A stretch of 64,000 nucleotides of DNA from Tubulanus polymorphus (lineage: Eukaryota; Animalia; Nemertea): NCBI RefSeq assembly GCF_964204645.1, contig NC_134026.1:31270150-31334149 (forward strand), read 5' to 3'. Shown here piece by piece: positions 4,700-64,000 of the stretch. Under the pieces are notes generated by a model. That model had not been told where the DNA came from, searched no databases, and worked only from the letters and a program-made list of their open reading frames with translations. How positions within the stretch are numbered: the first letter of the stretch is position 1; each line of letters begins with the position of its first letter. Made by a program: the position numbers and the translations under genes.

Positions 4700-4935
4700 T
4701 AAAAGGAATCAGAAATGTTTCCTCTAGCCGATAATTATTTATCATCTTGACTCAATCCTAATAGTCTTTTTCATCTTCGGGATATAAGCTGGAGGAATAC
4801 TTTGAAATATTCCAAATCAAACACCATATTTTTCTTTCATATAAAATCCCACACTAGAAATAAAAGAGTCAGAAATGTTTCCATGAGCTAAATGAAATGA
4901 GCTAAAAGTTTATTCGACGTTTCAACAGTGTCTTC
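4700..4935 (-). mobile_element. Degenerate copies of the hammerhead-bearing dispersed repeat
   Basis: Contains gagtcagaaatgtttcc, atataaaatcccacactagaaa and tattcgacgtttc, which match the reverse complement of the family consensus. Confidence 0.6.
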
Positions 4936-8546: not shown

Positions 8547-8958
8547 GCTGAAGCGATAATAGCGAGCATGAGCATTTAGCCTTCATCATCTCGACTCACG
8601 TTCTGCAGACGCGAAGAAAATTCTACCAAATTGCTGTTATTTCAAAACACTTTTGCTTTTACGGTAGAAATTGCCTCGATTGACTGTCAGTCGGTGTGGG
8701 TAACGCACTGGTGAGACCTTATCGTCAACTCCGTGACGAATCGGTAAAACACAGGACAGATAGTACTGTATACTTTGTAAAACTTGTCAGGGCGAGATTT
8801 AAAAACTACATTAAGTACTTCGTGTTTACTGATCTACACAACTCCTTCATTACCCAACCCTGACAATTTACTCTTCAATTATATAACCATTGATGAAACA
8901 TTCTGAGTCCGGCATTTAAAGTTCCTGCTCACTTAAACATGAAAAGAGTCCGAAATGT

Positions 8959-9086
8959 TTCCTTGAGCTAGTGTAGTTTATTCAACGTTTCCACTATATC
9001 CTAATAGTCATCTTCAGGAATACTGTATTCCTTGAGCTAGTGTAGTTTATTCAACGTTTCGACTTTATCCTAATAGTCATCTTCAG
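8959..9086 (-). ncRNA. Two tandem minimal hammerhead ribozyme units (69-bp family)
   Basis: The reverse complement reads ctgaagatgactattaggataaagtcgaaacgttgaataaactacactagctcaagg, then a second unit with a gtggaaa variant. Confidence 0.7.
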
Positions 9087-9194
9087 GACCCAGTTCCACA
9101 GTTGTGAGTTAGAGTTAACTCTGAGTTAAAGTTAGTTCATTTTCAATGTTTTAACCCAGGGTCAAATCTTAACTCAGAACTGTGGAACTGGACC
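9087..9194. mobile_element. 108-bp MITE (PIF/Harbinger-like) with CAG target-site duplication, nested in the hammerhead element
   Basis: TIRs gacccagttccacagtt / aactgtggaactggacc. CAG lies at 9084-9086 and 9195-9197. Removing the MITE restores cttcaggaatac. Confidence 0.8.
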
Positions 9195-9789
9195 CAGGAA
9201 TACAGGTCTATGATAGGATATAGTCGAATTATCTTCAGGAATACTAGTGTTGTCCTCATTAACCATTGATACCAATATTCCTGAAGATGATCCTCAAAAA
9301 CATCAAATAGATAAAAGCTTTGAAACGTCGGTTCAAGAAAACATTTCAGACTTTTTATGCCCAATGTTGAGGGAATTCATATATTATATGTATTCGTCCT
9401 TCAGTTCTTGTGACTTCGTAATTTTGGAAACCAAGTAAAAACTTTAGCTGCAGGCTTTATCTGATAATCCATCGTCACCAGTAGAACAAGGCGGCAGCCG
9501 ATAATTTACTGGTCGTCGAAGTGTAATAATGAAATCATGTAAGGCGTCTTGTATCATGATTAAAACAAATTGAAGTAGAATATCATTGTTTCCTGAGTTC
9601 ATTCAGACGAACTGATAAAACTAATGTTTTCATCAGCTGCGATCTTATACAGCTTCTAAAATCTAATTATTACACTCTATATCAACATCTAATCCTTTAA
9701 ACATCATTAAATAATGATCATGTGACAGTTTTTAGATACCGCTCTCTAAGAGTAAAAGAGTCAGAAATGCTTCAATAAAGCATTTGACA

Positions 9790-12087: not shown

Positions 12088-12506
12088 AGGGTCCAGTTGT
12101 ACAATTGTGACTTAAGTCCAAGATTTGTGTTTATTCTGTAACTGATCTTAAGTTGTTAGATTGGCTATAGAACCAAAATGAGCTTAGACTGGTCTCAAGT
12201 TGTTAGATTGGCTATAGAACCAAAATGATCTGAGACTGGTCTTAAGTTGTTAGATTGGTTATAGAACCAAAATGAGTTTAGACTGGTCTTAATTTGTTAG
12301 ATTGGTTATAGAACTAAAATGAGCTTAAACTGGTCTTAAGTTGTTAGATTGGTTATAGAACCAAAATGACTTTAGACTGGTCTTAAGTTATTAGATTGTT
12401 TATAGAACCAAAATGGGCTTAGACTGGTCTTAAGTTGTTAGATTGATTATAGAAATAAAATGAGTTTAGACTGGTTGTCTTTAAGCCATGACTGTGCGAA
12501 TGGGTG
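12088..12506. mobile_element. MITE with internal 47-bp tandem array (~7 units)
   Basis: Ends gggtccagttgtacaattgtgacttaag / ttaagccatgactgtgcgaatggg. Internal unit ttaagttgttagattggttatagaaccaaaatgagtttagactggtc. Confidence 0.8.
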
Positions 12507-13139
12507 CTGTACCACCACCAGTGACCGCTCCTCACAATCACCCTTGAACTTTCACAATCACCCCACGTCCATGACCGATACCGACCACAGGAAAGTTACA
12601 GTAAAATCATCGGCAATTTTTATTCACATTGAATAAATGCGAAAGTTATCGACATATTGACATTGATTTCTGTCGTGTGTGAAAGTTTGTTTCTACCTTA
12701 AGGGCCTCTGGTAGTGTTTTACTTGTAAATATTGTCAAACTTTATATCGATGGAAATATTGATTTGAAGGATGTTTCGAATTACTCGATGGAAGAGATGT
12801 GGTAATCAGGATCGCGAGTTATTTGAACTGTGTATAGAAGAAGCACTTTATATCACTTGATAGAAGAAAGAAGTTTATACCGCCTGAGCGCTTGATTATG
12901 TTACCAGTACCCGGTAGATGATGATGTAATATTGGCTTTATTTACCGGCATTTCTGGTAATAAAATTAGGTAACCTTTGATTGATTATAAACCAAGCGTT
13001 CATACAATAATGCATATTCCACAGATTGAAAGATGCTTCTTCAAACTCATATATAAAACTGGTGATCAGTTGGGAAGTAAAGAGAATAACAAAACCGAAA
13101 TCTTTCCTTGAGTTTATTCGACGTTTCGACTTCATCCTA

Positions 13140-13503
13140 TGAGCTTATTTTTGTTCTATAACCAATCTAAGAACTTAAGACCAGTCTAAAGCCATTTTGG
13201 TTCTATAACCTAACAACTTGAAGACCAGTCTAAACTCATTTTGGTTCTATAACCAATCTAATAACTTAAGACCAGTCTAAACTCATTCTAGTTCTATAAC
13301 CAATCTAACAACTTAAGAGCAGTCCAAGCTCATTTTGGTTCTATAACCAATCTATCAACTTAAGACCAGTCTAAACTCATTTTGGTTCTATAACCAAAGA
13401 CCAGTCTATGCTTATTTTAGTTCTATAACCAAACTAACAACTTGAAGACCAGTCTTGCAAGACGACTTCTGGACTTGAGTCATGACTGTGCAACCAAACC
13501 CTG
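13140..13503. mobile_element. 47-bp-array MITE copy in the opposite orientation
   Basis: ctataaccaatctaacaacttaagaccagtctaaactcattttggtt units ending in gtcatgactgtgcaaccaaaccctg. Confidence 0.8.
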
Positions 13504-23974: not shown

Positions 23975-24112
23975 GGGCCGGTTGCATATTCATGGCTTAG
24001 AATTAAGACCATTCTAAGACCAACTTAGTTCTATAGCCAGTCGAACAACTTAAGACCAGTCTTAAGATTTAAGACCACTTTTCTACTTAAGTCATGAATG
24101 TGCAACTGGCCC
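23975..24112. mobile_element. Short, unexpanded member of the 47-bp-array MITE family (Harbinger-like)
   Basis: TIRs gggccggttgcatattcatggctta / taagtcatgaatgtgcaactggccc, flanked by CAG and CTG (CWG), with roughly one internal unit. Confidence 0.8.
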
Positions 24113-27834: not shown

Positions 27835-28128
27835 ATCTAAAACTCATTTTAGTTCTATAACCAATATAACAACTTAAGACCAGTTTTAAGATCATTTTTG
27901 GTCTTTAACCAATCTAAGAAATTAAGACAAGTTTAAGCTCATTTTGGTTCTAATAGTCAATACAACAACTTTAAGACGAGTCTAAGCTCATTTGGTTTTA
28001 TAACCAATCTAACAACTGAAAACCAGTCTAAGTTCATCTTAGTTCTATAACCAATCTAACAACTTAAGACTAGTTTCAAGTCCATTAATTTGGTCTTCAA
28101 TGAGTCACGCCTGTACAACCAACCCCTG
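27835..28128. mobile_element. Diverged 47-bp-array MITE copy
   Basis: Same internal units, ending gagtcacgcctgtacaaccaacccctg. Confidence 0.75.
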
Positions 28129-29177: not shown

Positions 29178-29638
29178 ATCCGTTACATAGTCATGGCTTA
29201 GTTTTAAGACCAGTCCAAGACAATTGTAGTTCCATAGCCAATCTAACAACTTAAGACAAGTTTAAGCTCATGTTGGTTCTATAACCAATCTAGCAACTTA
29301 AGACCAGTCTAAACTCATTTTGGTTCTATAACCAATCTAACAACTTAAGACCAGTCATTTTGGTTTTATAACCAATCTAACAACTTAAGACCAGTCTAAG
29401 CCCATTTTGGTTCTATAGCCAATCTAACAACTTAAGACCAGTCTAAGCCCATTTTGCTTCTATAACCAATCTAACAACTTAAGACCAGTCTAAACTCATT
29501 TTGGTTTTATAACCAATCTAACAACTTAAGACCAGTCTAAACTCATTTTGGTTTTATAACCAATCTAACAACTTAAGACCAGTCTTATGTTTTAAAACCA
29601 CTTTTGGACTTGATTCACGACTGCGCAATTGGGCCCTG
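29178..29638. mobile_element. 47-bp-array MITE copy (~8 units)
   Basis: ccgttacatagtcatggctta ... tgattcacgactgcgcaattgggccctg. Confidence 0.85.
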
Positions 29639-29987: not shown

Positions 29988-30030
29988 GAGCGACGTTTCG
30001 GCTAACAACTGTTAGCCATCATCAGGAGTA
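29988..30030 (-). ncRNA. Minimal hammerhead-like motif, second family
   Basis: The minus strand reads CTGATGA-T-GGCTAAC-agtt-GTTAGCC-GAAA-CG-TC, homologous to the motif at ~80-125. Stem I pairing is weak. Confidence 0.55.
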
Positions 30031-30168
30031 CTGCCCACAGAAACTCGCTAAAGAGACTAATAGCTTGCTGCATAAACTCAACATAACTCATTCCATAAAC
30101 TCAAATTCGCTCATTATGAGAATTACCCTTTTTTGAAATTACATAGGTCTGTTAGTTCGGGAAACGTA

Positions 30169-31110: not shown

Positions 31111-31609
31111 GGTAGTATGTATGTAAAGGACGCCTAGCCAAATCCTAACTACACGCCTATAGCCAGCAAAATAGAAAAAAATATAGAAACATTTTACCGC
31201 GTGAATAAATAAACAAACGGCTTAAAACTAACAAAGGTCCGAAATCTAAAGGGCCGCCATCTGAGCTATACACAGACTGGGAGCTTTTATAAAAACCACT
31301 TTCTATAGAAACTGTTTAAGATATTGCTATCCACATCTTCACACATTGAAACACATTAATTCTGACGTCGTCATTCGTTCAAAAGGTCACATAGCCTGCA
31401 GAAAAGTTGCCTCTAATAAAGTCATCGGTCCATCATTACTCATTCGCTTCATGGGTCTCATGTGTTTGACACAGAGTTTTTAATAAACCAGTGTTTAGCG
31501 CAGCAGAGCAGTAGAGTAATTATACTGACAGATAGTAACTACCTCTCCGAGTCACAAAGACAATGTACTTTCTCATAATCCCTGTGAACTATAAGAAATA
31601 AAAAATACA

Positions 31610-31846
31610 GTACGAAATGTTTTCTACTTGAGCTAGTTTTCATTTCAACGCCCTTAGACTGTCTAACTAAAGTATTCCTCAATATGGCTTATTACTAGTT
31701 CAAGGAAACATCGTTATTATTAAGCGTTGGATTTTATATTATCTTTACAACACGGAATCAGCGTGTTGTTTCATCAATGGTTATAATGAGGACAACATCA
31801 GTATTACTGAAGATGTTTCGACTATATCCTATCATAGACCTGTATT
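31610..31846 (+). mobile_element. Body of the hammerhead-bearing dispersed repeat, preceding the array
   Basis: ctagttcaaggaaaca...ggattttatat...tttacaacacggaatca...gtttcatcaatggttataatgaggacaacatcagtattactgaagatg, then an inverted stem-II fragment. Confidence 0.7.
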
Positions 31847-32590
31847 CCTGAAGATGACTATTAGGATATAGTGGAAACGTTGAATAAACTACACTAGCTC
31901 AAGGAATACAGTATTCCTGAAGATGACTATTAGGATATAGTCGAAACGTTGAATAAACTACACTAGCTCAAGGAATACAGTATTCCTGAAGATGACTATT
32001 AGGATATAGTCGAATCGTTGAATACACTACACTAGCTCCAGGAATACAGTATTCCTGAAGATGACTATTAGGATAAAGTCGAAACGTTGAATAAACTACA
32101 CTAGCTCAAGGAATACAGTATTCCTGAAGATGACTATTAGGATATAGTCGAAACGTTGAATAAACTACACTAGCTCACTGAATACAGTATTCCTGAAGAT
32201 GACTATTAGGATAAAGTCGAAACGTTGAATAAACTACACTAGCTCAAGGAATACAGTATTCCTGAAGATCACTATTAGGATATAGTCGAAACGTTGAATA
32301 AACTACACTAGCTCAAGGAATACAGTATTCCTGAAGATGACTATCAGAATAAAGTCGAAACGTTGAATAAACTACACTAGCTCAAGGAATACAGTATTCC
32401 TGAAGATGACTATTAGGATAAAGTCGAAACGTTGAATAAACTACACTAGCTCAAGGAATACAGTATTCCTGAAGATGACTATTAGGATAAAGTCGAAACG
32501 TTGAATAAACTACACTAGCTCAAGGAATACAGTATTCCTGAAGATGACTATTAGGATATAGTCGAAACGTTGAATAAACTACACTAGCTC
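31842..32590 (+). ncRNA. Head-to-tail array of 11 minimal hammerhead ribozyme units (69-bp period)
   Basis: Each unit reads tattc-CTGAAGA-t-gactat-taggat-atagtc-GAAA-cg-tt-gaata: stem I tattc/gaata, stem II gactat/atagtc, palindromic AACGTT at helix III. Unit starts fall at 31847+69n up to 32537. Confidence 0.8.
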
Positions 32591-33249
32591 CAAGAAACGC
32601 GCGCTCATCAGTGTTTTCAGCCATTATTTTTTTCTCAGAGACAAAGTCACTATCCACACCTCCCGTTATTACCTCTCTACAATTTAAATACCCGTTTTTT
32701 GTTCATATTCATTTCGATTTTAATTCGCCTGATAAATAGCACAATATTTCTCCTAATAGACTTAAACGAATGACATTTTGAAATCATAGTTTTATCGAAT
32801 GAACATCTATATTGTGTACTGGCTATTTCTATACGGACCAGTTATCAATGTGAAATATATATAACCCGACATTGTTTACATGCAATAAACAAAATTATCA
32901 AAATAATGACAATTTGAAAATAGTTTTTTGACTCCGGTAAAAATATGGCAATTAGCATTGCGCTTACCTTATATCAGTATCAGTAACAGGGGACGGATAG
33001 AGTAGTATCCATAACACTCTCCACGATCACTCGGCTATACACGTATCTAAATTCTCAATTGACAATTGACAATTGCGAAATAATCCATAATTAAAACTTT
33101 GCGACTTTGTATGAACGTCGACGCGATATGAAACAAATAAACCAGTAACATCAAGAAGACATCAATGGATTGACGAGAAGGTTTATAAATGTTTGATACT
33201 CTGCGCGTACAGTTGCGTCTAGCTAGTCGAGTTGACTCAACGACTACTG

Positions 33250-37448: not shown

Positions 37449-40190
37449 CCTCAGTCAATCCACCCTCCATCTCTCCAGTCCTCAGTTAATCCAACCTCCA
37501 TCTCTCCAGTCCTCAGTCAATCCACCCTCCATCTCTCCAGTCCTCAGTTAATCCACCCTCCATCTCTCCAGTCCTCAGTCAATCCACCCTCTACCTCTCC
37601 AGTCCTCAGTCAATCCACCCTCCATCTCTCCAGTCCTCAGTCAATCCACCCTCTACCTGCCAATCCTCAGTCAATCCACCCTCTACCTCTCCAGTCCTCA
37701 GTCAATCCACCCTCTACCTCTCCAGTCCTCAGTCAATCCGCCCTCCATCTCTCCAGTCCTTAGTCAATCCACCCTCCACCTCTCCAGTCCTCAGTCAATC
37801 CAACCTCCATCTCTCCAGTCCTCAGTCAATCCACCCTCTACCTCTCCAGTCCTCAGTCAATCCAACCTCCATCTCTCCAGTCCTCAGTCAATCCACCCTC
37901 TACCTCTCCAGTCCTCAGTCAATCCACCCTCCATCTCTCCAGTCCTCAGTCAATCCACCCTCCACCTCTCCAGTCCTCAGTCAATCCACCCTCTACCTCT
38001 CCAGTCCTCAGTCAATCCACCCTCTACCTCTCCAGTCCTCAGTCATCCCCCTCCACCTCTCCAGTCCTCAGTCAATCCACCCTCTACCTCTCCAGTCCTC
38101 AGTCAATCCGCCCTCCACCTCTCCAGTCCTCAGTCAATCCACCCTCTACCTCTCCAGTCCTCAGTCAATCCGCCCTCTACCTCTCCAGTCCTCAGTCAAT
38201 CCGCCCTCCACCTCTCCAGTCCTCAGTCAATCCACCCTCTACCTCTCCAGTCCTCAGTCAATCCACCCTCTACCTCTCCAATCCTCAGTCAATCCACCCT
38301 CTACCTCTCCAGTCCTCAGTCAATCCACCCTCTACCTCTCCAGTCCTCAGTCAATCCGCCCTCCACCTCTCCAGTCCTCAGTCAATCCACCCTCTACCTC
38401 TCCAGTCCTCAGTCAATCCACCCTCTACCTCTCCAATCCTCAGTCAATCCACCCTCTACCTCTCCAGTCCTCAGTCAATCCACCCTCTACCTCTCCAGTC
38501 CTCAGTCAATCCGCCCTCCACCTCTCCAGTCCTCAGTCAATCCACCCTCTACCTCTCCAGTCCTCAGTCATCCCCCCTCCACCTGCCAGTCCTCAGTCAA
38601 TCCGCCCTCCATCTCTCCAGTCCTCAGTCAATCCGCCCTCCATCTCTCCAGTCCTCAGTCAATCCACCCTCCATCTCTCCAGTCCTCAGTCAATCCGCCC
38701 TCCATCTCTCCAATCCTCAGTCAATCCACCCTCCATCTCTCCAGTCCTCAGTTAATCCAACCTCCATCTCTCCAGTCCTCAGTCAATCCACCCTCTACCT
38801 CTCCAGTCCTCAGTCAATCCACCCTCCATCTCTCCAGTCCTCAGTCAATCCACCCTCCACCTCTCCAGTCCTCAGTCAATCCGCCCTCCATCTCTCCAGT
38901 CCTTAGTCAATCCACCCTCTACCTCTCCAGTCCTCAGTCAATCCGCCCTCCATCTCTCCAGTCCTCAGTCAATCCACCCTCTACCTCTCCAGTCCTCAGT
39001 CAATCCGCCCTCCATCTCTCCAGTCCTTAGTCAATCCACCCTCCACCTCTCCAGTCCTCAGTCAATCCACCCTCTACCTCTCCAGTCCTCAGTCAATCCG
39101 CCCTCCATCTCTCCAGTCCTCAGTCAATCCAACCTCCATCTCTCCAGTCCTCAGTCAATCCACCCTCCACCTCTCCAGTCCTCAGTCAATCCACCCTCTA
39201 CCTCTCCAGTCCTCAGTCAATCCACCCTCCATCTCTCCAGTCCTCAGTCAATCCACCCTCCACCTCTCCAGTCCTCAGTCAATCCACCCTCTACCTCTCC
39301 AGTCCTCAGTCAATCCACCCTCTACCTCTCCAGTCCTCAGTCAATCCGCCCTCCATCTCTCCAGTCCTCAGTCAATCCACCCTCCATCTCTCCAGTCCTC
39401 AGTCAATCCACCCTCTACCTCTCCAGTCCTCAGTCAATCCGCCCTCTACCTCTCCAGTCCTCAGTCAATCCACCCTCCATCTCTCCAGTCCTCAGTCAAT
39501 CCACCCTCTACCTCTCCAGTCCTCAGTCAATCCACCCTCCACCTCTCCAGTCCTCAGTCAATCCACCCTCCATCTCTCCAGTCCTCAGTCAATCCACCCT
39601 CTACCTCTCCAGTCCTCAGTCAATCCGCCCTCCATCTCTCCAGTCCTCAGTCAATCCACCCTCCATCTCTCCAGTCCTCAGTCAATCCACCCTCTACCTC
39701 TCCAGTCCTCAGTCAATCCACCCTCCATCTCTCCCGTCCTCAGTCAATCCACCCTCTACCTCTCCAGTCCTCAGTCAATCCACCCTCCACCTCTCCAGTC
39801 CTCAGTCAATCCACCCTCTACCTCTCCAGTCCTCAGTCAATCCGCCCTCTACCTCTCCAGTCCTCAGTCAATCCACACTCCATCTCTCCAGTCCTCAGTC
39901 AATCCACCCTCTACCTCTCCAGTCCTCAGTCAATCCGCCCTCCATCTCTCCAGTCCTCAGTCAATCCGCCCTCCATCTCTCCAGTCCTCAGTCAATCCAC
40001 CCTCCATCTCTCCAGTCCTCAGTCAATCCGCCCTCCATCTCTCCAATCCTCAGTCAATCCACCCTCCATCTCTCCAATCCTCAGTCAATCCACCCTCCAT
40101 CTCTCCAATCCTCAGTCAATCCACCCTCTACCTGCCAGTCCTCAGTCAATCCACCCTCTACCTCTCCAGTCCTCAGTCAATCCACCCTCC
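37449..40190. repeat. 31-bp satellite, ~88 copies
   Basis: Unit ccagtcctcagtcaatcc(a/g)ccctc(cat/cac/tac)ctct. Confidence 0.98.
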
Positions 40191-41442: not shown

Positions 41443-41555
41443 AAACTACACTAGCTCATGGAAACCTTTTCGGAATTTATTTATTCTGTTCTGTTGTAGG
41501 ATTTCATATCGTCTTTGCAACACGGACTCAGCAGATTGTGTTTCATCAATGGTTG
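41443..41555 (+). mobile_element. Partial copy of the hammerhead-bearing dispersed repeat
   Basis: aaactacactagctcatggaaac...ggatttcatat...caacacggactcag...tgtttcatcaatggtt. Confidence 0.7.
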
Positions 41556-43587: not shown

Positions 43588-43895
43588 CTAACTTAAGACC
43601 AGTTTAAGCTTATCTTAGTTGTATAATCAATCTAACAACTTAATACCAGTCTAAACTCATTTTGGTTCTATAACCAATCTAACAACTTAAGACCAGTTAA
43701 GCTCATTTGGTTCTATAACTAACCTAACAACTTAAGACCAGTCTCAGCTCATTTTGGTTCTATAGCCAATCTAACAACTTAAGACCAGTCTAAGCTCATT
43801 TTGATTCAATAACCAATCTACCACTACTTTAGACTAGTCTAAACTCATTTTAGTTCTAGAACCAATCTAACGTTAAGAAGTCTGATTCTGGTTCT
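43588..43895. mobile_element. 47-bp-array MITE-derived tract
   Basis: About 6 units of the 47-bp repeat. Confidence 0.75.
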
Positions 43896-48368: not shown

Positions 48369-49697
48369 CGCTGGTGATGAGGGAGTTTTCACACATACGT
48401 GTAAATGTCCAATTAAACTAACGTGTTGCCGATGCCGGTGCCGGTCGTGTTGACTGAATTATATTTCATTTTCAACATCATTAAATTAAATGTGTTTCAA
48501 TTTAAAGCAACATTTTTTCAATGGAGGAGGTGGTGATGGGGGCAGTGGGGGTGGGCTGTGGGGGGGGGACGCATTGATATCATGAGGAAGGGCAGGACAG
48601 GAAATATTTGATAATGTTGTTTTGATAATGGTTTATGAAATGTGTGTTACGCGTAGGTCCGCGGCCTCGCGACTGTCCCAGTGAGAGAAGGGAGGGGGTA
48701 AATTGAGATTTCAGCCCTGATTCGGTTATCTGAGTTAGTCGACTATTTGCGAACTTTACGAATGTCAGTTAGTCGAAACTATAGCCCGGAAATGGTCGAC
48801 CACGGGATGAGCACGGTCGCTGTAGTTCCGACCCAGTTTCAGGATGGCCGAAACTGTTTAAGCATCACCGCCGAACTATAATGTGTTCTGTTATTAGCTC
48901 CGACCATTGTTTTAGCTACGAAATCTGAAGTTGGCCTCAACTGGCGATCTACCCTAAACCTGGATACGGCTGGTTTGCTCCCAGTATCTGTCACGTTCTA
49001 ACTCCGATACTACCCCGCCTTTAAGCTGCCCGATGACTGACTGTATATCTGTGACGTCACACATTGCTGTTAAGTGGCCTATGATATTACTGAACTCGAA
49101 AGTGTGCTTGACCGAACGGATATCAAATTATAGTCGTTTCGACCGAGCGGCCCAGAAACCCTCCATCATAGCATTTAACCCTGGCTCCTGGCTCTCCATC
49201 AACCCAAGCTGTCCAACACGCGTGAGGCAGATCGTGGTGGATAATTAACAGTCTCCCAGTAAATGGCCATAAAGACGATGAGAGAGAGAGAGAGGAGGAG
49301 AGAGAGGAGGGATTGTCATGAGTCACGGTAGAGTCTGTTTACATTAATGAGCGAAAGTAGCAAAAAACACTACAGCTTTACGCCATTATTTCTGACAAAT
49401 TGGATCCGTTCATCAGAACTCGACACTCAGTGAACTTGTTACGTTTTTCTGTTTCTGCTTGTGTCGTTCTGAATCAGCATTTAGTGTTAACCATTAATGA
49501 AACAATCCGAGTCCGTGTTGTAACGATTATCAGATGACACATTGAAAAAAATAAAAACAGTCCGAAATGTTTCCTCGAGCTAGTAGTTTATTCATGGTTT
49601 CGACTTTATCCTTAAAAGTCGACTTTAAATGGTTAAAATATGACAGCATTTTGTTTCAGTATCGACTGCAGGAGTTAGAATTGACTTATGTTGTTCT

Positions 49698-49830
49698 GGG
49701 GATGGTTGCACAGTCATGACTTAAGTCCTAAAATGGTCTTAAATCTTAAGACTGATCCTTAAGTTAGATTGGCTATACAACTAAGTTGGTCTTAGACTGG
49801 TCCCAAGCCTAAGCCGTGACTGTGTAACTG
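49698..49830. mobile_element. Short copy of the 47-bp MITE family
   Basis: ggttgcacagtcatgacttaag ... taagccgtgactgtgtaactg. Confidence 0.75.
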
Positions 49831-50000: not shown

Positions 50001-51295
50001 GGCCGCCTTAGTTACGAAGATCCCACATGACCCCAAACAATTTTTTTTCTCCGATTGTTCTGGTTTTAACTGAAATCCTAATAATTTGTTTATCAGCGGT
50101 AAGTCTAAGCGGGCTAGGGGTTGAGAGGTCCGTGTTTTATCTATAAGAGTCAGAGGAACAGTTCAAACGTTCTTTATTGTCCTGTGCTGGGATTTTATAT
50201 GATTTTTACAACACGGACTCAAGGAGTGTTTCATCATCGATACAATTTCGCCGTTGTTTCAATCTTGACTTCTCGATAAGTTTATCACCTGCTTTCATTG
50301 TTTTTACAATCCGTTTCTGTTTATTCCGCGGTTCATTCTCGACGTAAATTTACTCAATGACAAATCGCGACGACCAAACAAAATCCGACACAACTCGTTA
50401 CACGACCTCCACAGTTCGTCTGCTACTCTCGCGACTGTTGTGTACTTTTCTTTGTCATCCTGTCGTTCATTTTCTCCGGTTTTCGATGCGGCCAATAAAC
50501 TAACGTTGTATGTCTCGTGGTATTGACACAATGTTCTCAAACAGCCTCTAATTGCATACCTGGCATAATTCTACCCGGCGTGATGTCCGCATAATGAGAC
50601 TCCCCGTGACTCATATCGTAATTAAAACTACGTGTTACGGATTTCAAAGGTCACAAAGGCTTCAGTTTCACTGATCCCGGCAACCACTACAGGAATGCAA
50701 TATCGATGCTATTATTATGAGATTATTGCTGATATATTCCAAAGCTTCGATGATTTTGATATTTCACAGAATATCATCTCACGCAATATTTCAGATTGAG
50801 ATTATTGTCACTCTTATTCGTTTAACTGATTTCATGTTTATTTCGTGTGACCCTTGCTGGCACACCTGCCGGGCACCGTACAGGGGGTTAATACAGCCAT
50901 TGTTATTGAACCCGGTAAGTTTGGGAGGTTTGTAACTCAATTTGACACGATAACTAAGAACCAAATACAGATTAAAATCTTTAGTTAATAAATCCCCAAT
51001 TTATATAAATCTGTCGTGGTTTTATTCATTTTGATTCACGCAAAGATCGTCACATATCCGTTACAAAAAGACGTGGAAAACAACAGGACAAAATACCGTC
51101 CAAAAAGACTTGCCGTAAAGGCGTAACAAAAATGTGATTTAACAATGTATATTTCACCTATCAACTTTGAAATGTTAATATCAGTTTAACTCTAGTCGAA
51201 CTATAAAATCCTGGATTCATAGGCCTGCTAGGAACTGAAACCCATCAAAAAATACTATGTTACCTACAGGATCTGATTCACGACACGAAATCGCT

Positions 51296-51917: not shown

Positions 51918-52510
51918 AGAACTGGGTTCAGAACTGTGGAACTGGGTTCAGTACTGTGGAACTGGATACAGAACTGTGGAACTGGGTTCAGAACTGTGGA
52001 ACTGGGTTCAGAACTGTGGAACTGGGTTCAGAACTGTGGGACTGGGTACAGTAACTGTGGAACTGGGTTCAGAACTGTGGAACTGGATACAGAACTGTGG
52101 AACTGGATTCAGAACTGTGGAACTGAGTCCAGTAACTGTGGAACTGAGTCCAGAACTGTGGAACTGGGTTCAGTACTGTGGAACTGGATACAGAACTGTG
52201 GAACTGGGTTCAGAACTGTGGAACTGGGTTCAGAACTGTGGGACTGGGTACAGTAACTGTGGAACTGGGTTCAGAACTGTGGAACTGGATACAGAACTGT
52301 GGAACTGGATTCAGAATTGAGGAACTGGGTCCTGAACTGGAGAACTGGATCCTGAATTGTGGAACTGGGTTCAGAACTGTAGAACTGGGTTCAGAACTGT
52401 GGAAATGGATTCAGAACTGTGGAACAGGGTACAGAACTGTGGGACTAGGTTCAGAACTGTGGAAATGGATTCTGAACTGTGGAACTGGATTCTTACTGTG
52501 GAATTGGACC
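51918..52510. repeat. 20-bp minisatellite related to a MITE terminus, ~29 copies
   Basis: Unit cagaactgtggaactgggtt. Confidence 0.93.
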
Positions 52511-53305: not shown

Positions 53306-55269
53306 AAAACGAAGAACCGTCCTTGAGCATTCCTAGCCACGCCGCTTCTGATAACCACTGGCTGAACTCGTCATAAAACTGAATGCTCTGAATGAGTGAA
53401 TGCTAAGTTGATGTGTAGTTGGCGTGAGTTCGGCTATCAGCGGATTTCCGCTTTTAAGGCGACTATTTTTTATTTTTATCTATTGTACAAATTACGCATA
53501 TATTTCGATAAACGTAATTTATAATAATTTTACCAAGCTCAAAAATAGATAATAATCCACTTGGAAAATAATCTAGTTTTTAAGTCTCAGTCACTCGGAA
53601 AACGGGATTACAATTTCCGATAAACGCCACCGTTGTCACTATTAGTAGTAATCGATGCATTAGGAGCTTTCAAAATATATGGATATCGTGGAGAGACTGA
53701 AGCCAAGATCCGATCTGAAGCTGTATTGAGCACATATACATACAACGACCGAACTTTGGGTTCGAATCCCTGAATATGTGGAGACAATGACCGAACCCAA
53801 TTCAAACGGGCAAACTTAGCGCATGGGATTCATTTCCACAGTTCTGAGTTAAGGTTGGTCTATAAAATAATTTAAACTCGAGTCGTTGATAGTCTAGGCT
53901 TAGTTCAAAGCGGTGAAACCCAGTGCGTCCTGATTCGTAAAGCGCTCTCAGGCGAAAAGTACTGAAACCTCACCCGCTACGGCGGTGAGTGCAATAACCG
54001 GACTATAGGTGGGTTCGAATCCTTGAATATTGACCGAACTAAACTCAAACTAATGCATCACATATCTATTAAGTCTCCTCAGGTATATAGAATGCACTGA
54101 AGGCGCCTAATTAACTACACTAGTTTTTACAGTGTCCAGCACTAAACATCGATACACTGAACAGACACGTGAAGTACCATTGGACGATATAAAGTATAAC
54201 TCGAGTCCGATGTCTGAACGACCATCAGATTCTAGCAAGTCCGAGTCAGAAAGTGCAGTGAAAAATTGATCATCTCGCCCGGGGACCGGGTTCCGGGCGG
54301 TCGGCACGCATGCGCGATGAATTTTGATCAATATTTGATGGACTGTGTCTAGTGTTTGCCTCGAGGGAGACATTCAAGACAAAAAACACAACAGCGGTTT
54401 AGAGTGATTAGTACAGACTATAGTTTCCAGTAATTAACCAAACAATTCACTAGTGGTCTGAATCAGATATACGTGACCAAAATACCATCACCTGCTCGCC
54501 GCCTCCTGACTCGCCCGCGCCGCCTGACTCGTCAGGTCAGGTACAGCGCTAATGTCATTTATCGGCCCACGTGACCCTGCATGTCTCTGGTGATTAAACA
54601 CAAGTTGTTTATTTCATTACAGTCTGTGACTTGTTTTAGTAAACACGAAAAACATCGGGCAAAAAACTCTGAAAACTTTCGAGATGAGGAGAGGGCGCTG
54701 CGATCAGGAGCAGAGGGCGCTGCGATCGTTCAAATTGAAGAATAAAGTTAAATCTCATCTTATCTTGTCAATTATCTAAGACCATACTATGTCTAACTTA
54801 AACAGTCTTAACATTTAAGACCACTCCAAGACTTACGTCACGACTGCAACTGAATGACTATCTCTCGGCAAAACTGATGGTTTTGAAGTAAATGTTGGTC
54901 AGATCTCTGTTCGGTATATGACCCTTGAATAAAGCGGTCGTACATTGAGACCATCAGCCTTACGGGCTGGAAATGAATTAGAGTCAAATTTATATAAACT
55001 GTAGAACTGTAAGATGAGATCTTGGAAAGTCAAATGATTACTCCAAGGTAAGATCTAGTATTCATTCATAATGAGAGATGTACAGTGGCCGGTCACTGGT
55101 CTCGTCACTGGTCTCGTCAATCCAGGGTTTATAGGTTCAAACCCTGGTGGCGACAGAGTTTCTTGGTCGAATAGTTCTTCTCTGGTCTCTCCCCCATTGG
55201 GAAAACGAAGCATCGAACCCGCTTATAATGACCTGCGTGGCGCTTAGCGGGTTGAGGGTGTTTAAAAAA

Positions 55270-55530
55270 AAGTATTCCTGTAGACTATTGGGATAAACAC
55301 GACTGGGTCAAGGAAACATTTCGTACTCAATGTCTATTCTTAACGTTGGATCTTGTATCATCTTTTACAACACGGACTCAGAGTCAGTTTTATCGATGTT
55401 TTTGATAAGAAGTAGAAAAAAAGATTAACAAATCATAATTCTGATGAAACACTAGAATTCCTGAAGATGGTTATTGTAGTCGAAATGTAGAATCTGGTAC
55501 TAGCTCCAAGGAAAGATTTCAGACCATTCA
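55270..55530 (+). mobile_element. Two degenerate copies of the hammerhead-bearing repeat
   Basis: agtattcctgtagactatt...caaggaaacatttcg...tttacaacacggactcaga, then acactagaattcctgaagatggttattgtagtcgaaatgt. Confidence 0.65.
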
Positions 55531-57634: not shown

Positions 57635-59284
57635 CAGGATGTGACTGTTATACCGCCCACCACTACCGGCTTCTTGCATTCAGTATTACTTACAATCCAT
57701 CCATTCATCACATCACTGAATTCATCTCTATTTTTGAGTCACAATTTGTATTTCTAGTTTAATTTACTAAAAAAAGTTAGTCGTCATTCAGGTAAGTCGT
57801 TATATCGCACTATTCAACTGATAGGAAAAAACCTCTTCCCGCGATACCGAACTCATACATAATGGAGGTGATTTAATAAAATGCATGTAATAAGTCTTAT
57901 TAGCATGCAATAGTACGTGACCAGTAAGCGGTATTATCAGTGTCTGATTCAGCCGATTATGAATGGAATTTTATTGAATATAACGGTTACTGCCACACGC
58001 CTGCGCGCGATTCTATATAAGGAAATGCCTTTTTGTCGTCTGTGAAAGAAGCCGCGAGAACACGAAGTGAAATTAGGTAAATGGAAGAACAAAAGCGATT
58101 CGAATAACCGCACAGAAACTGGTCTGGATAGACATTCCGTAATGTCATGTTTAGGCCTGCAGGCTTTTCGTAAAATTGATCGTCAACAAAATGTCATCTT
58201 TTGAGCGAGAAATCCCTGTAGGAGATGAGAGAAAATTCGGGCATTAATTGTGTTCTGTGTAAGATGAGATATAGACATAAAAGTAAAGGTTTAGGGATTA
58301 GAAATGAACGCGCATACTGCAGTCTCTTCACAGATCAAGGGTCTTAAAACACTTTTCATGATGCGTTCGACAATTTACGTAAAGGTCTTTTAGCAGTAGC
58401 TGCAGTAGCTGCAGCTGCTGCTGTTAGCTTAACTTATAAAATAGGTGTTCAGACTAGAATACAAAAGGTTTGCTTTACTTTAATGAAAAGGACCCAGTTT
58501 TCTAATCCACACGAGTTTAGTTTAATATTTCGATAGTGAAAAAGTCTCGAGTGTCATTAAGAAACAACACGCTCATCTCAATGCTATCTCAACTACTCGC
58601 ATGGTCTATATATAGCTTAGTTCTGATTTTGTTCTGATGCGGGTAACATTAGTTTTGGCCGAAAGGTGTCAACAAGATTTTTGGTGTAAAATATAACAAA
58701 AAGGATCTAAGATTTTCGCCTTGTCTTTCTGTTTATCATTGACCTTAATGACTTTGTTTTCTAATTTATTACGACTTAAACAAAAGATTATTTAGCATTT
58801 TGACTTTGTTATTCAATCTCCCTGTTTTGGTCCCGGTAGGTGTGACTGGTGTCGGTAAAGGGCACATCTCAATGTGAGGCCTTTAGAAACATCGTCGGTG
58901 CGATGACCAGAACACATTTGCATGACGGAACAATTTAACCGCGCACAATGTGATCGGGGACATTACAGAACTGATGCTGATTAGCGCTGATGAAATTCCC
59001 GCAAAAATGATAACGAATAATCGAATGACAATAAAAGGAGTGCTCCGTCTAATTCACATTCCGTATGGCATTCACGCTGGCTGAAAATTTGTCAACAGAT
59101 AATCTTACGCTCGATTAAGGTAACCACGGTTTGATAAGCATTGTAGGGTGTGTTTGACCGGATTATTGACGCCACCAGACTAATTCCAAAGAGCAGACGA
59201 TCATTTGATTTACGAATCGCGATTTAGTAACAATGTGACATAATATCTTGATGATCTGAAAAATCCCTGCACCCCTGAAAATTG

Positions 59285-59492
59285 AGTCCGAAATGCTTCC
59301 TCATTGGGCTGGTATTTTTCAACGTTTCGACTATATCCTAATAGTTATCTTCAGGAATACTGTATTCCTTGAGCTAGTGTAGTTTATTCTACGTTGCGAC
59401 TTTATTCTAATAGTCATCTTCAGGAATACTGTATTCAGTGAGCTAGTGTAGTTTATTCTACGTTGCGACTTTATTCTAATAGTCATCTTCAG
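59285..59492 (-). ncRNA. Three inverted, partly mutated hammerhead units
   Basis: aacgtttcgactatatcctaatagttatcttcagg, plus two copies with acgttgcgac (GAAA changed to GCAA). Confidence 0.65.
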
Positions 59493-59519
59493 AAAAGGTA
59501 TTCTTGGTTAAGTATATAG

Positions 59520-60165
59520 TTGAAACGTCGAATAAACTACACTAGCTCAAGGAATACAGTATTCCTGAAGATGACTATTAGGATATAGTCGAAACGTTGA
59601 ATAAACTACACTAGCTCCAGGAATACAGTATTCCTGAAGATGACTATTAGGATATAGTCGAAACGTTGAATAAACTACACTAGCTCAAGGAATACAGTAT
59701 TCCTGAAGATGACTATTAGGATATAGTCGAAACGTTGAATAAACTACACTAGCTCAAGGAATACAGTATTCCTGAAGATGACTATTAGGATAAAGTCGAA
59801 ACGTTGAATAAACTACACTAGCTCAAGGAATACAGTATTCCTGAAGATGACTATTAGGATATAGTCGAAACATTGAATAAACTACACTAGCTCAAGGAAT
59901 ACAGTATTCCTGAAGATGACTATTAGGATAAAGTCGAAACGTTGAATAAACTACACTAGCTCAAGGAATACAGTATTCCTGAAGATGACTATTAGGATAT
60001 AGTGGAAACGTTGAATAAACTACACTAGCTCAAGGAATACAGTATTCCTGAAGATGACTATTAGGATATAGTCGAAACGTTGAATAAACTACACTAGCTC
60101 AAGGAATACAGTATTCCTGAAGATGACTATTAGGATATAGTGGAAACGTTGAATAAACCACTAGT
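59520..60165 (+). ncRNA. Head-to-tail array of 9 minimal hammerhead ribozyme units (69-bp period)
   Basis: Same unit as the 31.8-kb array, with starts at 59564+69n up to 60116. The family body sequence follows to ~60360. Confidence 0.8.
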
Positions 60166-60789
60166 TCAAGCAAACATTTAAAACTCTTTTCATTCATAGC
60201 TCGGAATTTTTTATGAAAAAAAAACCTCTATCCTGAAGATGAAGTCGAAACGTCTCGTAACAACACAGGAAATATTTCGGGCATTTTATTATATTGAGTG
60301 CACTGGGATTTTATATCGTCATGAACTACACGGACTCAGAGAGTGTTTCATCAATGGTTTTCTATTCGCCGTTTTAATGCAGCATATTTTCCATTTCATA
60401 ATAGATCATTGTTCCTACTCGCGCACTTGACACTGAGTAACAGTGAATTTCCGGAGCTCTCCTAAACTGAGCAGCTATCAGTCAGTCAGTCCCCTGTTTA
60501 AGTGCTCTCCGTCGCTGTTAGAACAGTTCAATTAATGCCACGCACTCTAATTATGCTTTAATGAATGGCGAACAAACAAACTTCAATTAATGGCAAATTA
60601 TAACGAAATGATGAATTGTCCGATTTTGACTAAAACGTCAACTTATCGAGAACAAGAGTTCGACTTGACCCTCTCACTGATCGTAGGTTCCATTACCAGT
60701 AAAATGGATTCTAAAAAAAACTACTTAAATCAATGAGTTGTGTTTAATCACTGAGTCGATGCGTCATCAGTTTTATTGCTTGTATATTT

Positions 60790-63399: not shown

Positions 63400-63496
63400 T
63401 AACCAACTTAGTTCTAGCCAATCTAACCACTTAAGACTAGTCTTAAGATTTAAGACCACTTTTAGACTTAAGTCATGACTATGCAACCGGCCCCTG
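63400..63496. mobile_element. 3' half of the 47-bp MITE family
   Basis: accaacttagttctagccaatctaacc...taagtcatgactatgcaaccggcccctg. Confidence 0.75.
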
Positions 63497-64000
63497 AACT
63501 TGAAACTATGGTGGACAATGAGGTGCATATCTTACACGAAATATGGGGTACCATTTTAAGTTCTTCGAGATAAAAAAGTTGATCATGTGCCTTGCTTTCA
63601 GATCCATGGATTTTTGAAAGCACTCGTTGTTCGTAGCTTACGCCATTGGATGCATGTAACTATAGCAGTCGTTATGGGTTGACTCCAATTTTAAAACTTG
63701 ACCCCAGCAGATGAGTTGGAAAATGGAGGTCAAGCACATTTTTTTGCGACAGAGTCAACTCCCTGTTACTTGAGTCAACATTGCTAGTAAGCAGTTCGTG
63801 AAGCATGGTCAATACTTAGTTAAAAAGTAATCCTAACTCAGACTGACAAATCGTGCTGGCGTGAGTCAGTAAAATGAAAAAAAAAACCATAGTTCCAAAG
63901 ACAAGTTGCAGGGGTATCAGATTTTACAAATTTAAGCCATGCATGGATGTCATTGTAATTCAACCTTGTATTCCGCCGGTTCGCGGTGACTCAATATTCT

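What the first reader, a model, noticed from the sequence alone, without database searches (positions are those of the whole stretch)
31842..32590. 69-bp satellite built entirely of minimal hammerhead ribozymes
Seen: 11 near-identical 69-bp units, each with CUGAAGA, a 6-bp stem II (gacuau/auaguc), GAAA, a GUU triplet and a 5-bp stem I (uauuc/gaaua). Known: Penelope-like elements and metazoan non-LTR retrozymes carry minimal type I hammerheads whose palindromic helix III (here AACGUU) cannot close in a monomer and is thought to form between two copies. Inference: a transcript through the array gives each ribozyme an adjacent partner and could self-process into 69-nt monomers or circles, shorter than the retrozyme monomers I know of.
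Basis: partly seen in the sequence, partly recalled or inferred. Interest (0 to 1): 0.85.

Follow-up and report, generated by a model that had tools for sequence, protein, structure and literature searches.

The report
Self-blocking hammerhead minisatellite from Penelope end
Most units of this 69-base repeat carry a minimal hammerhead (self-cutting RNA) motif, but the repeat is likely a shortened offshoot of a longer repeat from the end of a Penelope-type jumping gene, and each spacer is predicted to pair with and switch off the next ribozyme, so it likely spreads uncut rather than making tiny RNA circles.

Summary
The array is real: 10.9 x 69 bp, 96% identical. 8 of 11 units pass a minimal type I hammerhead descriptor; only 3 have the 6-bp stem II claimed, and 3 carry core lesions. 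Raw reads show roughly a thousand such units genome-wide and a ~167-nt parent repeat (hammerhead plus tail). Window copies of the parent show ragged 5' ends, a shared 3' end and head-to-head inversions, the insertion pattern of Penelope-like elements (PLEs). No reverse transcriptase was found, so the PLE link is inferred. The 69-nt junction adds an 8-nt complement of stem I plus C3/U4. Folding predicts it traps every core that has a unit upstream (stem I probability about 0), so processing into 69-nt monomers or circles is unlikely. The arrays are mosaics of shared variants, and their cores are no better conserved than the linkers. Best reading: a PLE-derived hammerhead tandem repeat that spreads uncut. 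Tandem hammerhead repeats of 51-972 bp are already reported (bioRxiv 10.64898/2026.07.22.740005), and this scan noted similar arrays in other genomes. Cleavage and transcription are untested. New member of a known kind; interest 0.3.

The parts
31842..32590 (+). Tandem array, 10.9 x 69-bp units; 8 of 11 with an intact minimal hammerhead motif
31912..31955 (+). Model hammerhead (unit 2): stem I 5' 31912-16, CUGAAGA 31917-23, bulged U 31924, stem II 31925-30/31937-42, GAAA 31943-46, ACGU palindrome 31946-49, U17 31950, predicted cut 31950|31951, stem I 3' 31951-55
   Evidence: the cut site is inferred from hammerhead numbering
31971..31978 (+). Linker 8-mer AGGAATAC, complement of GTATTCCT (stem I 5' plus C3, U4); predicted blocker, repeated in each unit
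31952..31957 (+). AATAAA overlapping stem I 3', one base after the predicted cut (possible poly(A) signal; untested)
   Evidence: sequence
31695..31800 (+). Diverged tail of the ~167-nt parent repeat, with the tail-to-hammerhead junction
31801..31841 (+). Truncated hammerhead start followed by an inverted stem II fragment (31815-31831); this composite junction is 91% identical over 78 nt to 9270-9195
32591..32598 (+). Remnant of the tail start where the array ends; about 800 reads run from unit into tail here
   Evidence: C32591A 766 of 870 reads, A32593G 809 of 862
8882..9385 (-). Sister composite: inverted diverged copy (9273-9385, + strand), shared junction, foldback insert in the first core, 1.9 units, tail
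59250..59498 (-). Sister array of about 2.6 units plus partial tail, head-to-head with the array at 59511
59511..60362 (+). Sister array, 9.6 x 69 bp, then a short tail, a deleted hammerhead (60231) and a full tail
55445..55530 (+). Diverged solo hammerhead of the family that passes the descriptor; stem II kept through G-U pairs
41443..41554 (+). 5'-truncated solo (no core) ending at the shared 3' end; similar solos at 49488-49620(-), 50150-50236(+), 55280-55403(+), 13086-13139(-), 4735-4926(-)

Best explanation
The array is a tandem repeat of a minimal type I hammerhead motif that likely arose from a ~167-nt repeat resembling the end repeat (pLTR) of a Penelope-like element, and its linker is predicted to switch the ribozymes off, so it likely spreads as uncut multimers. 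Shown: the motif, the parent repeat, the sister arrays, the shared variants. Inferred step 1: the parent is a non-autonomous PLE derivative copied by a PLE reverse transcriptase. Inferred step 2: the 69-mer was born when the AGGAA at the start of the tail was joined to a fold-back copy of the hammerhead's 5' end, either by slippage at a head-to-head insertion or by a template switch; this dropped about 100 nt of tail and left an 8-nt complement of the core's 5' strand. Predicted step 3: that complement forms a local hairpin before the core is finished. It lies downstream of each cut site, so every released piece would still carry its blocker; at most a 5'-most core with no linker upstream could cut once. 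Inferred step 4: arrays grow and mix by DNA-level exchange, and move as uncut (69)n-plus-tail transcripts, with no selection on catalysis.
For: Parent repeat: 236 reads join the unit end to the tail and 318 join the tail to the hammerhead start, giving 167 nt. PLE-type scars: 7 window copies end at about the same tail position with ragged 5' ends; head-to-head copies at 9273/9250 and 59495/59511; 136 and 154 reads with opposite-strand joints at the hammerhead's 5' end. These match the PLE description in PMC8557442 (passages). As in anole Poseidon (PMC11167929), an ATG sits at the base of stem II (31923-25). Blocker: duplex -8.7 vs stem I -1.1 kcal/mol; stem II probability 0.97-0.99 and stem I 0.0; C3 paired at all 15 nascent lengths tested. 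Mosaic arrays: T28A in 10 of 25 units across all 4 arrays, C32G in 3 arrays, and the doublet AG>CT in 2. 10 of 25 units have a core, G10.1-C11.1 or palindrome lesion. 3 of 4 arrays end in a tail and the fourth in its first letters. In vitro, hammerhead cleavage was not needed for Poseidon insertion and unprocessed RNA was the main substrate.
Against: No RT or GIY-YIG domain among 85 ORFs of 75 aa or more in the window, no genome was available, and the tail read as protein found no relative: the autonomous partner is not identified. Folding energies omit Mg2+, tertiary contacts and proteins, and Poseidon's hammerhead cleaves only with its protein. Parent-type contexts also pair the core's 5' strand (-4.3 vs -7.3 kcal/mol hairpin; duplex -5.1), so the blocker is strengthened, not new. 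A free 5' core needs only 3.9 kcal/mol to cut its neighbour. In reads of all core-bearing copies the most variable sites are loop 2, position 28 and H17 (14-16%), while nine non-CpG core positions are absent from the listed rows (63 rows hidden), which fits past selection for catalysis in the family. Opposite-strand joints at a palindrome can be library artefacts. The second, shorter 3' end (a PLE 'tail' signature) rests on 2 clear and 2 doubtful copies.
Confidence: 0.55

Rival explanations
1. A PLE-derived but purely DNA-level minisatellite: the 69-mer arose once from a parent copy, and arrays then spread by local duplication, unequal exchange and gene conversion, never through RNA.
For: The window holds 25 units where reads predict about 0.2 per 64 kb (rough, other individual). 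Two loci 22 kb apart share a complex 78-nt junction at 91%. Mosaic variants and no excess core conservation fit this equally well.
Against: Arrays end in the tail that marks the family's fixed 3' end, and two loci have head-to-head partners. The two loci share no flank beyond the element in the self-comparison.
Confidence: 0.25
2. One reading: an active retrozyme whose adjacent ribozymes cleave as dimers, perhaps with a PLE protein as chaperone, giving 69-nt monomers and circles that are reverse-transcribed by rolling circle.
For: 8 of 11 units keep the core, including a run of four. The nested double-hammerhead fold can be drawn. Minimal hammerhead dimers cleave weakly in vitro (PMC4209133). 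Blocked ribozymes occur in plant retrozyme and viroid circles (PMC7229834 discussion).
Against: 12-25 kcal/mol penalty and a blocker upstream of every internal core. One circle as template would give uniform arrays, not mosaics of shared variants (inference). GUU rather than the faster GUC or GUA triplet (PMC3138052 passages), and U17 lets A14 pair in the dimer. 8 of 9 Xenopus dimers did not cleave. The 69-mer lacks the tail where family insertions end.
Confidence: 0.1
3. Each array is a fresh reverse-transcriptase stutter: near the RNA's 5' end the enzyme folds back, jumps to the AGGAA at the tail start and re-copies the same 69 nt several times.
For: The junction is exactly fold-back plus microhomology, and arrays lie 5' of a tail. 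The lead came from note e1-8641139 (unreviewed).
Against: A stutter on one template gives identical units, yet arrays are mosaics, with transversions and a doublet shared between loci. The exact 69-nt joint dominates in reads (2,742, against at most 116 for any other listed back-joint).
Confidence: 0.1

Closest known systems
[quoted passage not shown]
   Same: Short helix I (4-5 bp), long helix II, an unpaired base between 9 and 10.1, G10.1-C11.1, palindromic 15.2-16.2, no helix III, thousands of dispersed copies, nearby inverted pairs.
   Different: Here the motif is amplified head-to-tail at 69 nt and carries an 8-nt complement of its own 5' strand; no PLE ORF was found next to it.
Animal non-LTR retrozymes as PLE derivatives (Li, Clavereau, Pollet 2026, bioRxiv 10.64898/2026.07.22.740005; parts 1-3 of 5 read, supplements closed)
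   Same: Tandem repeats with a type I hammerhead per unit, 51-972 bp, related to pLTRs; multimers clustered in a few regions; most tested dimers inactive.
   Different: A two-tier family (167-nt parent, 69-nt offshoot) and a predicted built-in blocker are not described in the parts read.
Non-LTR retrozymes of coral, mussel and axolotl (Cervera and De la Pena 2020, PMC7229834; passages and discussion read)
   Same: Non-coding, AT-rich, dispersed tandem arrays with type I hammerheads; PLEs proposed as helper.
   Different: Those are about 170-400 nt, have canonical hammerheads, are shown to be circular RNAs, and mostly leave the ribozyme free to fold.
Anole Poseidon PLE, PAc (Frangieh et al. 2024, PMC11167929; parts 1-2 of 4 read)
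   Same: ATG at the base of stem II; insertions end at fixed points downstream of the hammerhead, near an AC-rich stretch (111-118 nt from the ATG there; by my count roughly 103-113 here).
   Different: PAc is autonomous; this family has stops shortly after the ATG and no RT.

Membership tests
Minimal type I hammerhead (PLE type) | CUGANGA and GAAA boxes, base between 9 and 10.1, G10.1-C11.1, helix I 4-5 bp, helix II, UH site | tested here: met
   8 of 11 units in the array, 16 hits in the window, 0 in shuffles
Minimal type I hammerhead (PLE type) | Palindromic 15.1-16.1 allowing an inter-copy helix III | tested here: met
   ACGU; duplex -1.7 kcal/mol; nested dimer fold possible
Minimal type I hammerhead (PLE type) | Self-cleavage as a dimer | not testable with these tools
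   Predicted disfavoured; needs an in vitro assay
Rfam hammerhead families | Covariance-model hit | tested here: not met
Non-LTR retrozyme, operational sense of Li et al. 2026 | Tandem repeat with at least two consecutive complete type I motifs | tested here: met
   Runs of 3 and 4 passing units, with my descriptor rather than theirs; their -5 kcal/mol filter only approximated (stems I+II fold -7.6)
Non-LTR retrozyme, sense of Cervera and De la Pena 2020 | Canonical type I hammerhead in a 170-400 nt monomer | tested here: not met
   Minimal motif, 69 nt; the parent is about 167 nt but also minimal
Non-LTR retrozyme, sense of Cervera and De la Pena 2020 | Accumulates as circular RNA | not testable with these tools
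   Needs RNA from the organism
Penelope-like element (non-autonomous derivative) | 5' truncation, fixed 3' end, partial tandems, inverted 5' copy | tested here: met
Penelope-like element (non-autonomous derivative) | Optional 30-40 bp tail (two 3' ends) | tested here: inconclusive
   7 copies at the long end; 2 clear and 2 doubtful about 43 nt earlier
Penelope-like element (non-autonomous derivative) | Homology to the pLTR of an RT/GIY-YIG element in the same genome | tested here: inconclusive
   None in the window; no genome held; protein searches blank

The most novel reading that the evidence does not exclude
The 69-mer is a minimal selfish replicon whose linker is a true off-switch: a PLE protein opens the hairpin, the dimer cuts, and the monomer closes into a locked 69-nt circle, well below the 150-400 nt of the animal retrozyme circles in the papers read. 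Alternatively the blocker was favoured because uncut multimers are the better PLE substrate, which would make the 167/69 pair a natural on/off test of what PLE hammerheads are for.
Probability: 0.12. Interest if true: 0.75.

Novelty: new member of a known kind. Interest (0 to 1): 0.3.

Why it matters
The role of the minimal hammerheads in Penelope-like elements is stated as unknown in the reviews read (PMC7761336 passages), and cleavage was dispensable for insertion in vitro. This family offers a matched natural pair, a 167-nt parent and a 69-nt offshoot with a stronger predicted cis-blocker, so one linker mutation can test whether cutting helps or hinders spread. It also warns that motif-based retrozyme counts can include self-blocked repeats. 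As a class it is known.

Tried and rejected
Rfam: no hit at gathering thresholds; 9 chance-level hits at E<=10, none a hammerhead. Own genome not held, so no assembly-wide survey. Expression: no RNA holder listed, and the one run guessed to be RNA laid 0 contigs (X14); neither is evidence either way. PLE ORF: 85 ORFs against Pfam gave only sub-threshold hits (ORFs under 75 aa and low-complexity ORFs were left out). The idea that the tail is the start of a PLE ORF was tested with a natural copy read with X at its three stops: no homologue in either search, so it is unsupported, though a 43-residue degenerate query is weak. The tail pattern in viral contigs and a unit 25-mer in prokaryote genomes gave 0 matches. 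Runs X7 and X9 (organisms B, D) each gave one 99-nt contig at depth 2.5 and 4; I take these as possible carry-over and do not use them. No tRNA; the sigma-70 scan was at chance level and is not relevant to a eukaryote. A Helitron-type carrier was considered and dropped, because the flanks shared between arrays are parts of the parent repeat. Lunse et al. 2017 (PMC5785218) is not held; I saw it only as cited. Literature searches returned no description of a hammerhead-only satellite with a built-in blocker; the library lacks most subscription papers, and the supplements of the 2026 preprint, which list the short families, were closed. Scan look-ups by sequence, genome and relatives were blank.

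Full report
Observation. Tandem Repeats Finder gives 31842-32590, period 69, 10.9 copies, 96% matches. A descriptor for minimal type I hammerheads found 16 hits in the window, none in any of 100 dinucleotide shuffles, and none in 20,000 shuffles of the unit. In the array 8 of 11 units pass. Three have the contiguous 6-bp stem II; five carry T28A and keep 4 contiguous pairs; three fail through C11.1>G, A15.1>T or G10.1>C. The features match those listed for PLE minimal hammerheads in PMC4209133: short helix I, long helix II, a base between 9 and 10.1, and a palindromic 15.2-16.2. The usable palindrome is ACGU, not AACGUU. Rfam has no matching model. Related solo motifs in metagenome contigs keep a 6-bp stem II in 6 of 7 distinct cases, with swaps at pairs that my pattern did not fix; this supports a conserved RNA structure as the ancestor.

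It is a family, not one locus. The same unit forms arrays at 8959-9088(-), 59318-59498(-) and 59511-60170(+), and about a dozen older fragments lie in the window. No assembly was held, so I used reads. In X12, raw genomic reads under the same species label as the best holder, 11,139 of 12.9 million reads were laid on one unit plus flank; core depth was about 10,750 against 3-8 on covered flank, and 2,742 reads show the exact 69-nt head-to-tail joint. This gives about 5.6 core copies and 3 array units per Mb, or 750-1,500 units if single-copy depth is 4-8 (rough). A contig of run X1 crosses from the last unit into the same flank, so the locus is not an assembly artefact; the count of 11 units cannot be checked with short reads.

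The parent. On 31560-31935, 236 reads join the unit end through 33 further letters to the tail, and 318 join the tail to the hammerhead start, against 1,864 with the 69-nt joint. The longer unit is 167 nt. Seven window copies stop at about the same tail position and begin at different places. Two loci have head-to-head inverted partners, and reads show opposite-strand joints at the hammerhead's 5' end (136, 154; these could in part be library fold-backs, though two X1 contigs show the joint too). 5' truncation, partial tandems and an inverted 5' copy are the PLE pattern described in PMC8557442 (passages). A second 3' end about 43 nt earlier would match the PLE 'tail', but it rests on 2 clear and 2 doubtful copies. 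As in anole Poseidon, an ATG stands at the base of stem II. By eye the frame stays open through the tail if two common read variants are taken; this was not computed, and a natural copy read with X at stops found no homologue. No RT or GIY-YIG was found in 85 ORFs. The PLE origin is therefore inferred from anatomy. Tail-bearing solos are much more diverged (about 70-87%) than array units (96%), which suggests that the 69-mer is the younger form.

The junction and the blocker. The tail starts with AGGAAAC; the array has AGGAATAC there, followed by A and GTATTCCT, its exact complement. A head-to-head insertion at the hammerhead's 5' end creates this same sequence, so slippage or a template switch at AGGAA would yield the 69-mer (inference). 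In a natural 3.5-mer stem II forms with probability 0.97-0.99 and stem I with 0.0. The blocker duplex is -8.7 kcal/mol against -1.1 for stem I. The double-hammerhead with open cores is 12.1, 24.9 and 24.2 kcal/mol above the ensemble in three contexts, and 5.8, 7.1 and 6.9 when the 8-mer is forbidden to pair; the best fold is then the hammerhead monomer. C3 is paired at all 15 nascent lengths tested. The loophole is a first core with no linker upstream: it can cut its neighbour at 3.9 kcal/mol, or 9.3 once the next linker is made, against 16.6-17.3 for internal cores. Since the blocker lies downstream of each cut, released pieces stay blocked, so no ladder of monomers is expected. In this array the only unblocked core, unit 1, carries C11.1>G. 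Limits: the model ignores Mg2+, tertiary contacts and proteins; parent-type contexts also pair the core's 5' strand, more weakly; and Poseidon's hammerhead needs its protein to cut.

Selection and mode of spread. Across 25 window units, core changes are 9 of 325 sites, stems 11 of 540, loop 4 of 150 and linker 7 of 540 (core against linker p=0.13), and 10 of 25 units have a lesion. The same variants recur in different orders in different arrays, and T28A (15.5%) and C32G (3.9%) are also in the reads. One 69-nt circle as template would not give such mosaics; multi-unit templates or DNA exchange would (inference). Against this reading, in reads of all core-bearing copies the largest variants are at loop 2, position 28 and H17 (14-16%), then CpG transitions at C11.1, G12, C15.2 and G16.2 (5-8%) and U4>C (3.7%); C3, G5, A6, G8, A9, A13, A14, A15.1 and U16.1 are not among the listed rows (63 rows hidden, and linker sites lay at the ends of the reference, so they are under-counted). 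That fits selection for catalysis in the family's founders with neutral decay since, but it is not a full test.

Comparison. Li, Clavereau and Pollet (bioRxiv 10.64898/2026.07.22.740005; parts 1-3 of 5) report hammerhead tandem repeats of 51-972 bp, relate them to PLE pLTRs, propose local tandem amplification from a terminal repeat, and saw cleavage in 1 of 9 dimers. This array meets their operational definition. It does not meet that of the expressed coral, mussel and axolotl retrozymes, which have canonical motifs in 170-400 nt monomers and mostly unblocked ribozymes (PMC7229834; passages and discussion). Other papers were seen as passages (PMC6765202, PMC6155905, PMC7761336, PMC3138052) or passages and one section (PMC8490949). 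This scan's notes list eight similar hammerhead repeats in other genomes, one at a 50-51 nt period; they are unchecked and were used only as leads.

Verdict. This is a new member of a known kind, with one useful twist: a predicted built-in off-switch that makes a clean, cheap test of whether PLE hammerhead cleavage matters for spread. Interest 0.3.

Noticed in passing
window 9089-9194: A ~105-bp fold-back element (arms 9090-9111 and 9170-9191, 95% complementary) sits inside the hammerhead core of the sister copy; its ends match the 20-bp satellite at 51919-52507 and 53831-53856.
   Followed up: partly
window 12141-12475, 13147-13397, 27843-28074, 29204-29585, 43590-43871: A 47-bp satellite in five dispersed short arrays, with related stretches at 23981-24106, 49705-49828 and 63402-63499; possibly carried by a Helitron-like element (recalled pattern).
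   Followed up: no
window 29990-30035 (-): A different minimal hammerhead: CUGAUGA, 7-bp stem II, GUC site, but no stem I.
   Followed up: partly
reads of X12 on window 32522-32598: Two more large subfamilies share the core: one with other flanks (2,244 loose ends behind 32574) and one with a linker about 2 nt shorter leading into the tail (1,767 loose ends behind 32582).
   Followed up: no
run X8 on window 31842-31892: Organism C has 213 contigs with nearly the same hammerhead core and different downstream sequence: a related family in another species.
   Followed up: partly
whole window: About 100-fold more 69-bp units than the read-based genome average (25 against about 0.2 per 64 kb), plus about a dozen older solo copies, in a window crowded with tandem repeats and with no Pfam-supported gene among 85 ORFs.
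   Followed up: partly
L001-L011: Metagenome contigs hold solo motifs of the same type; 6 of 7 distinct ones have a 6-bp stem II, with A-U/U-A swaps at pairs 5-6 that the search pattern did not fix; stem I is often weak, and no long ORF lies nearby.
   Followed up: partly
window 37449-40190: A 31-bp C-rich satellite of 88.6 copies with strong strand skew.
   Followed up: no
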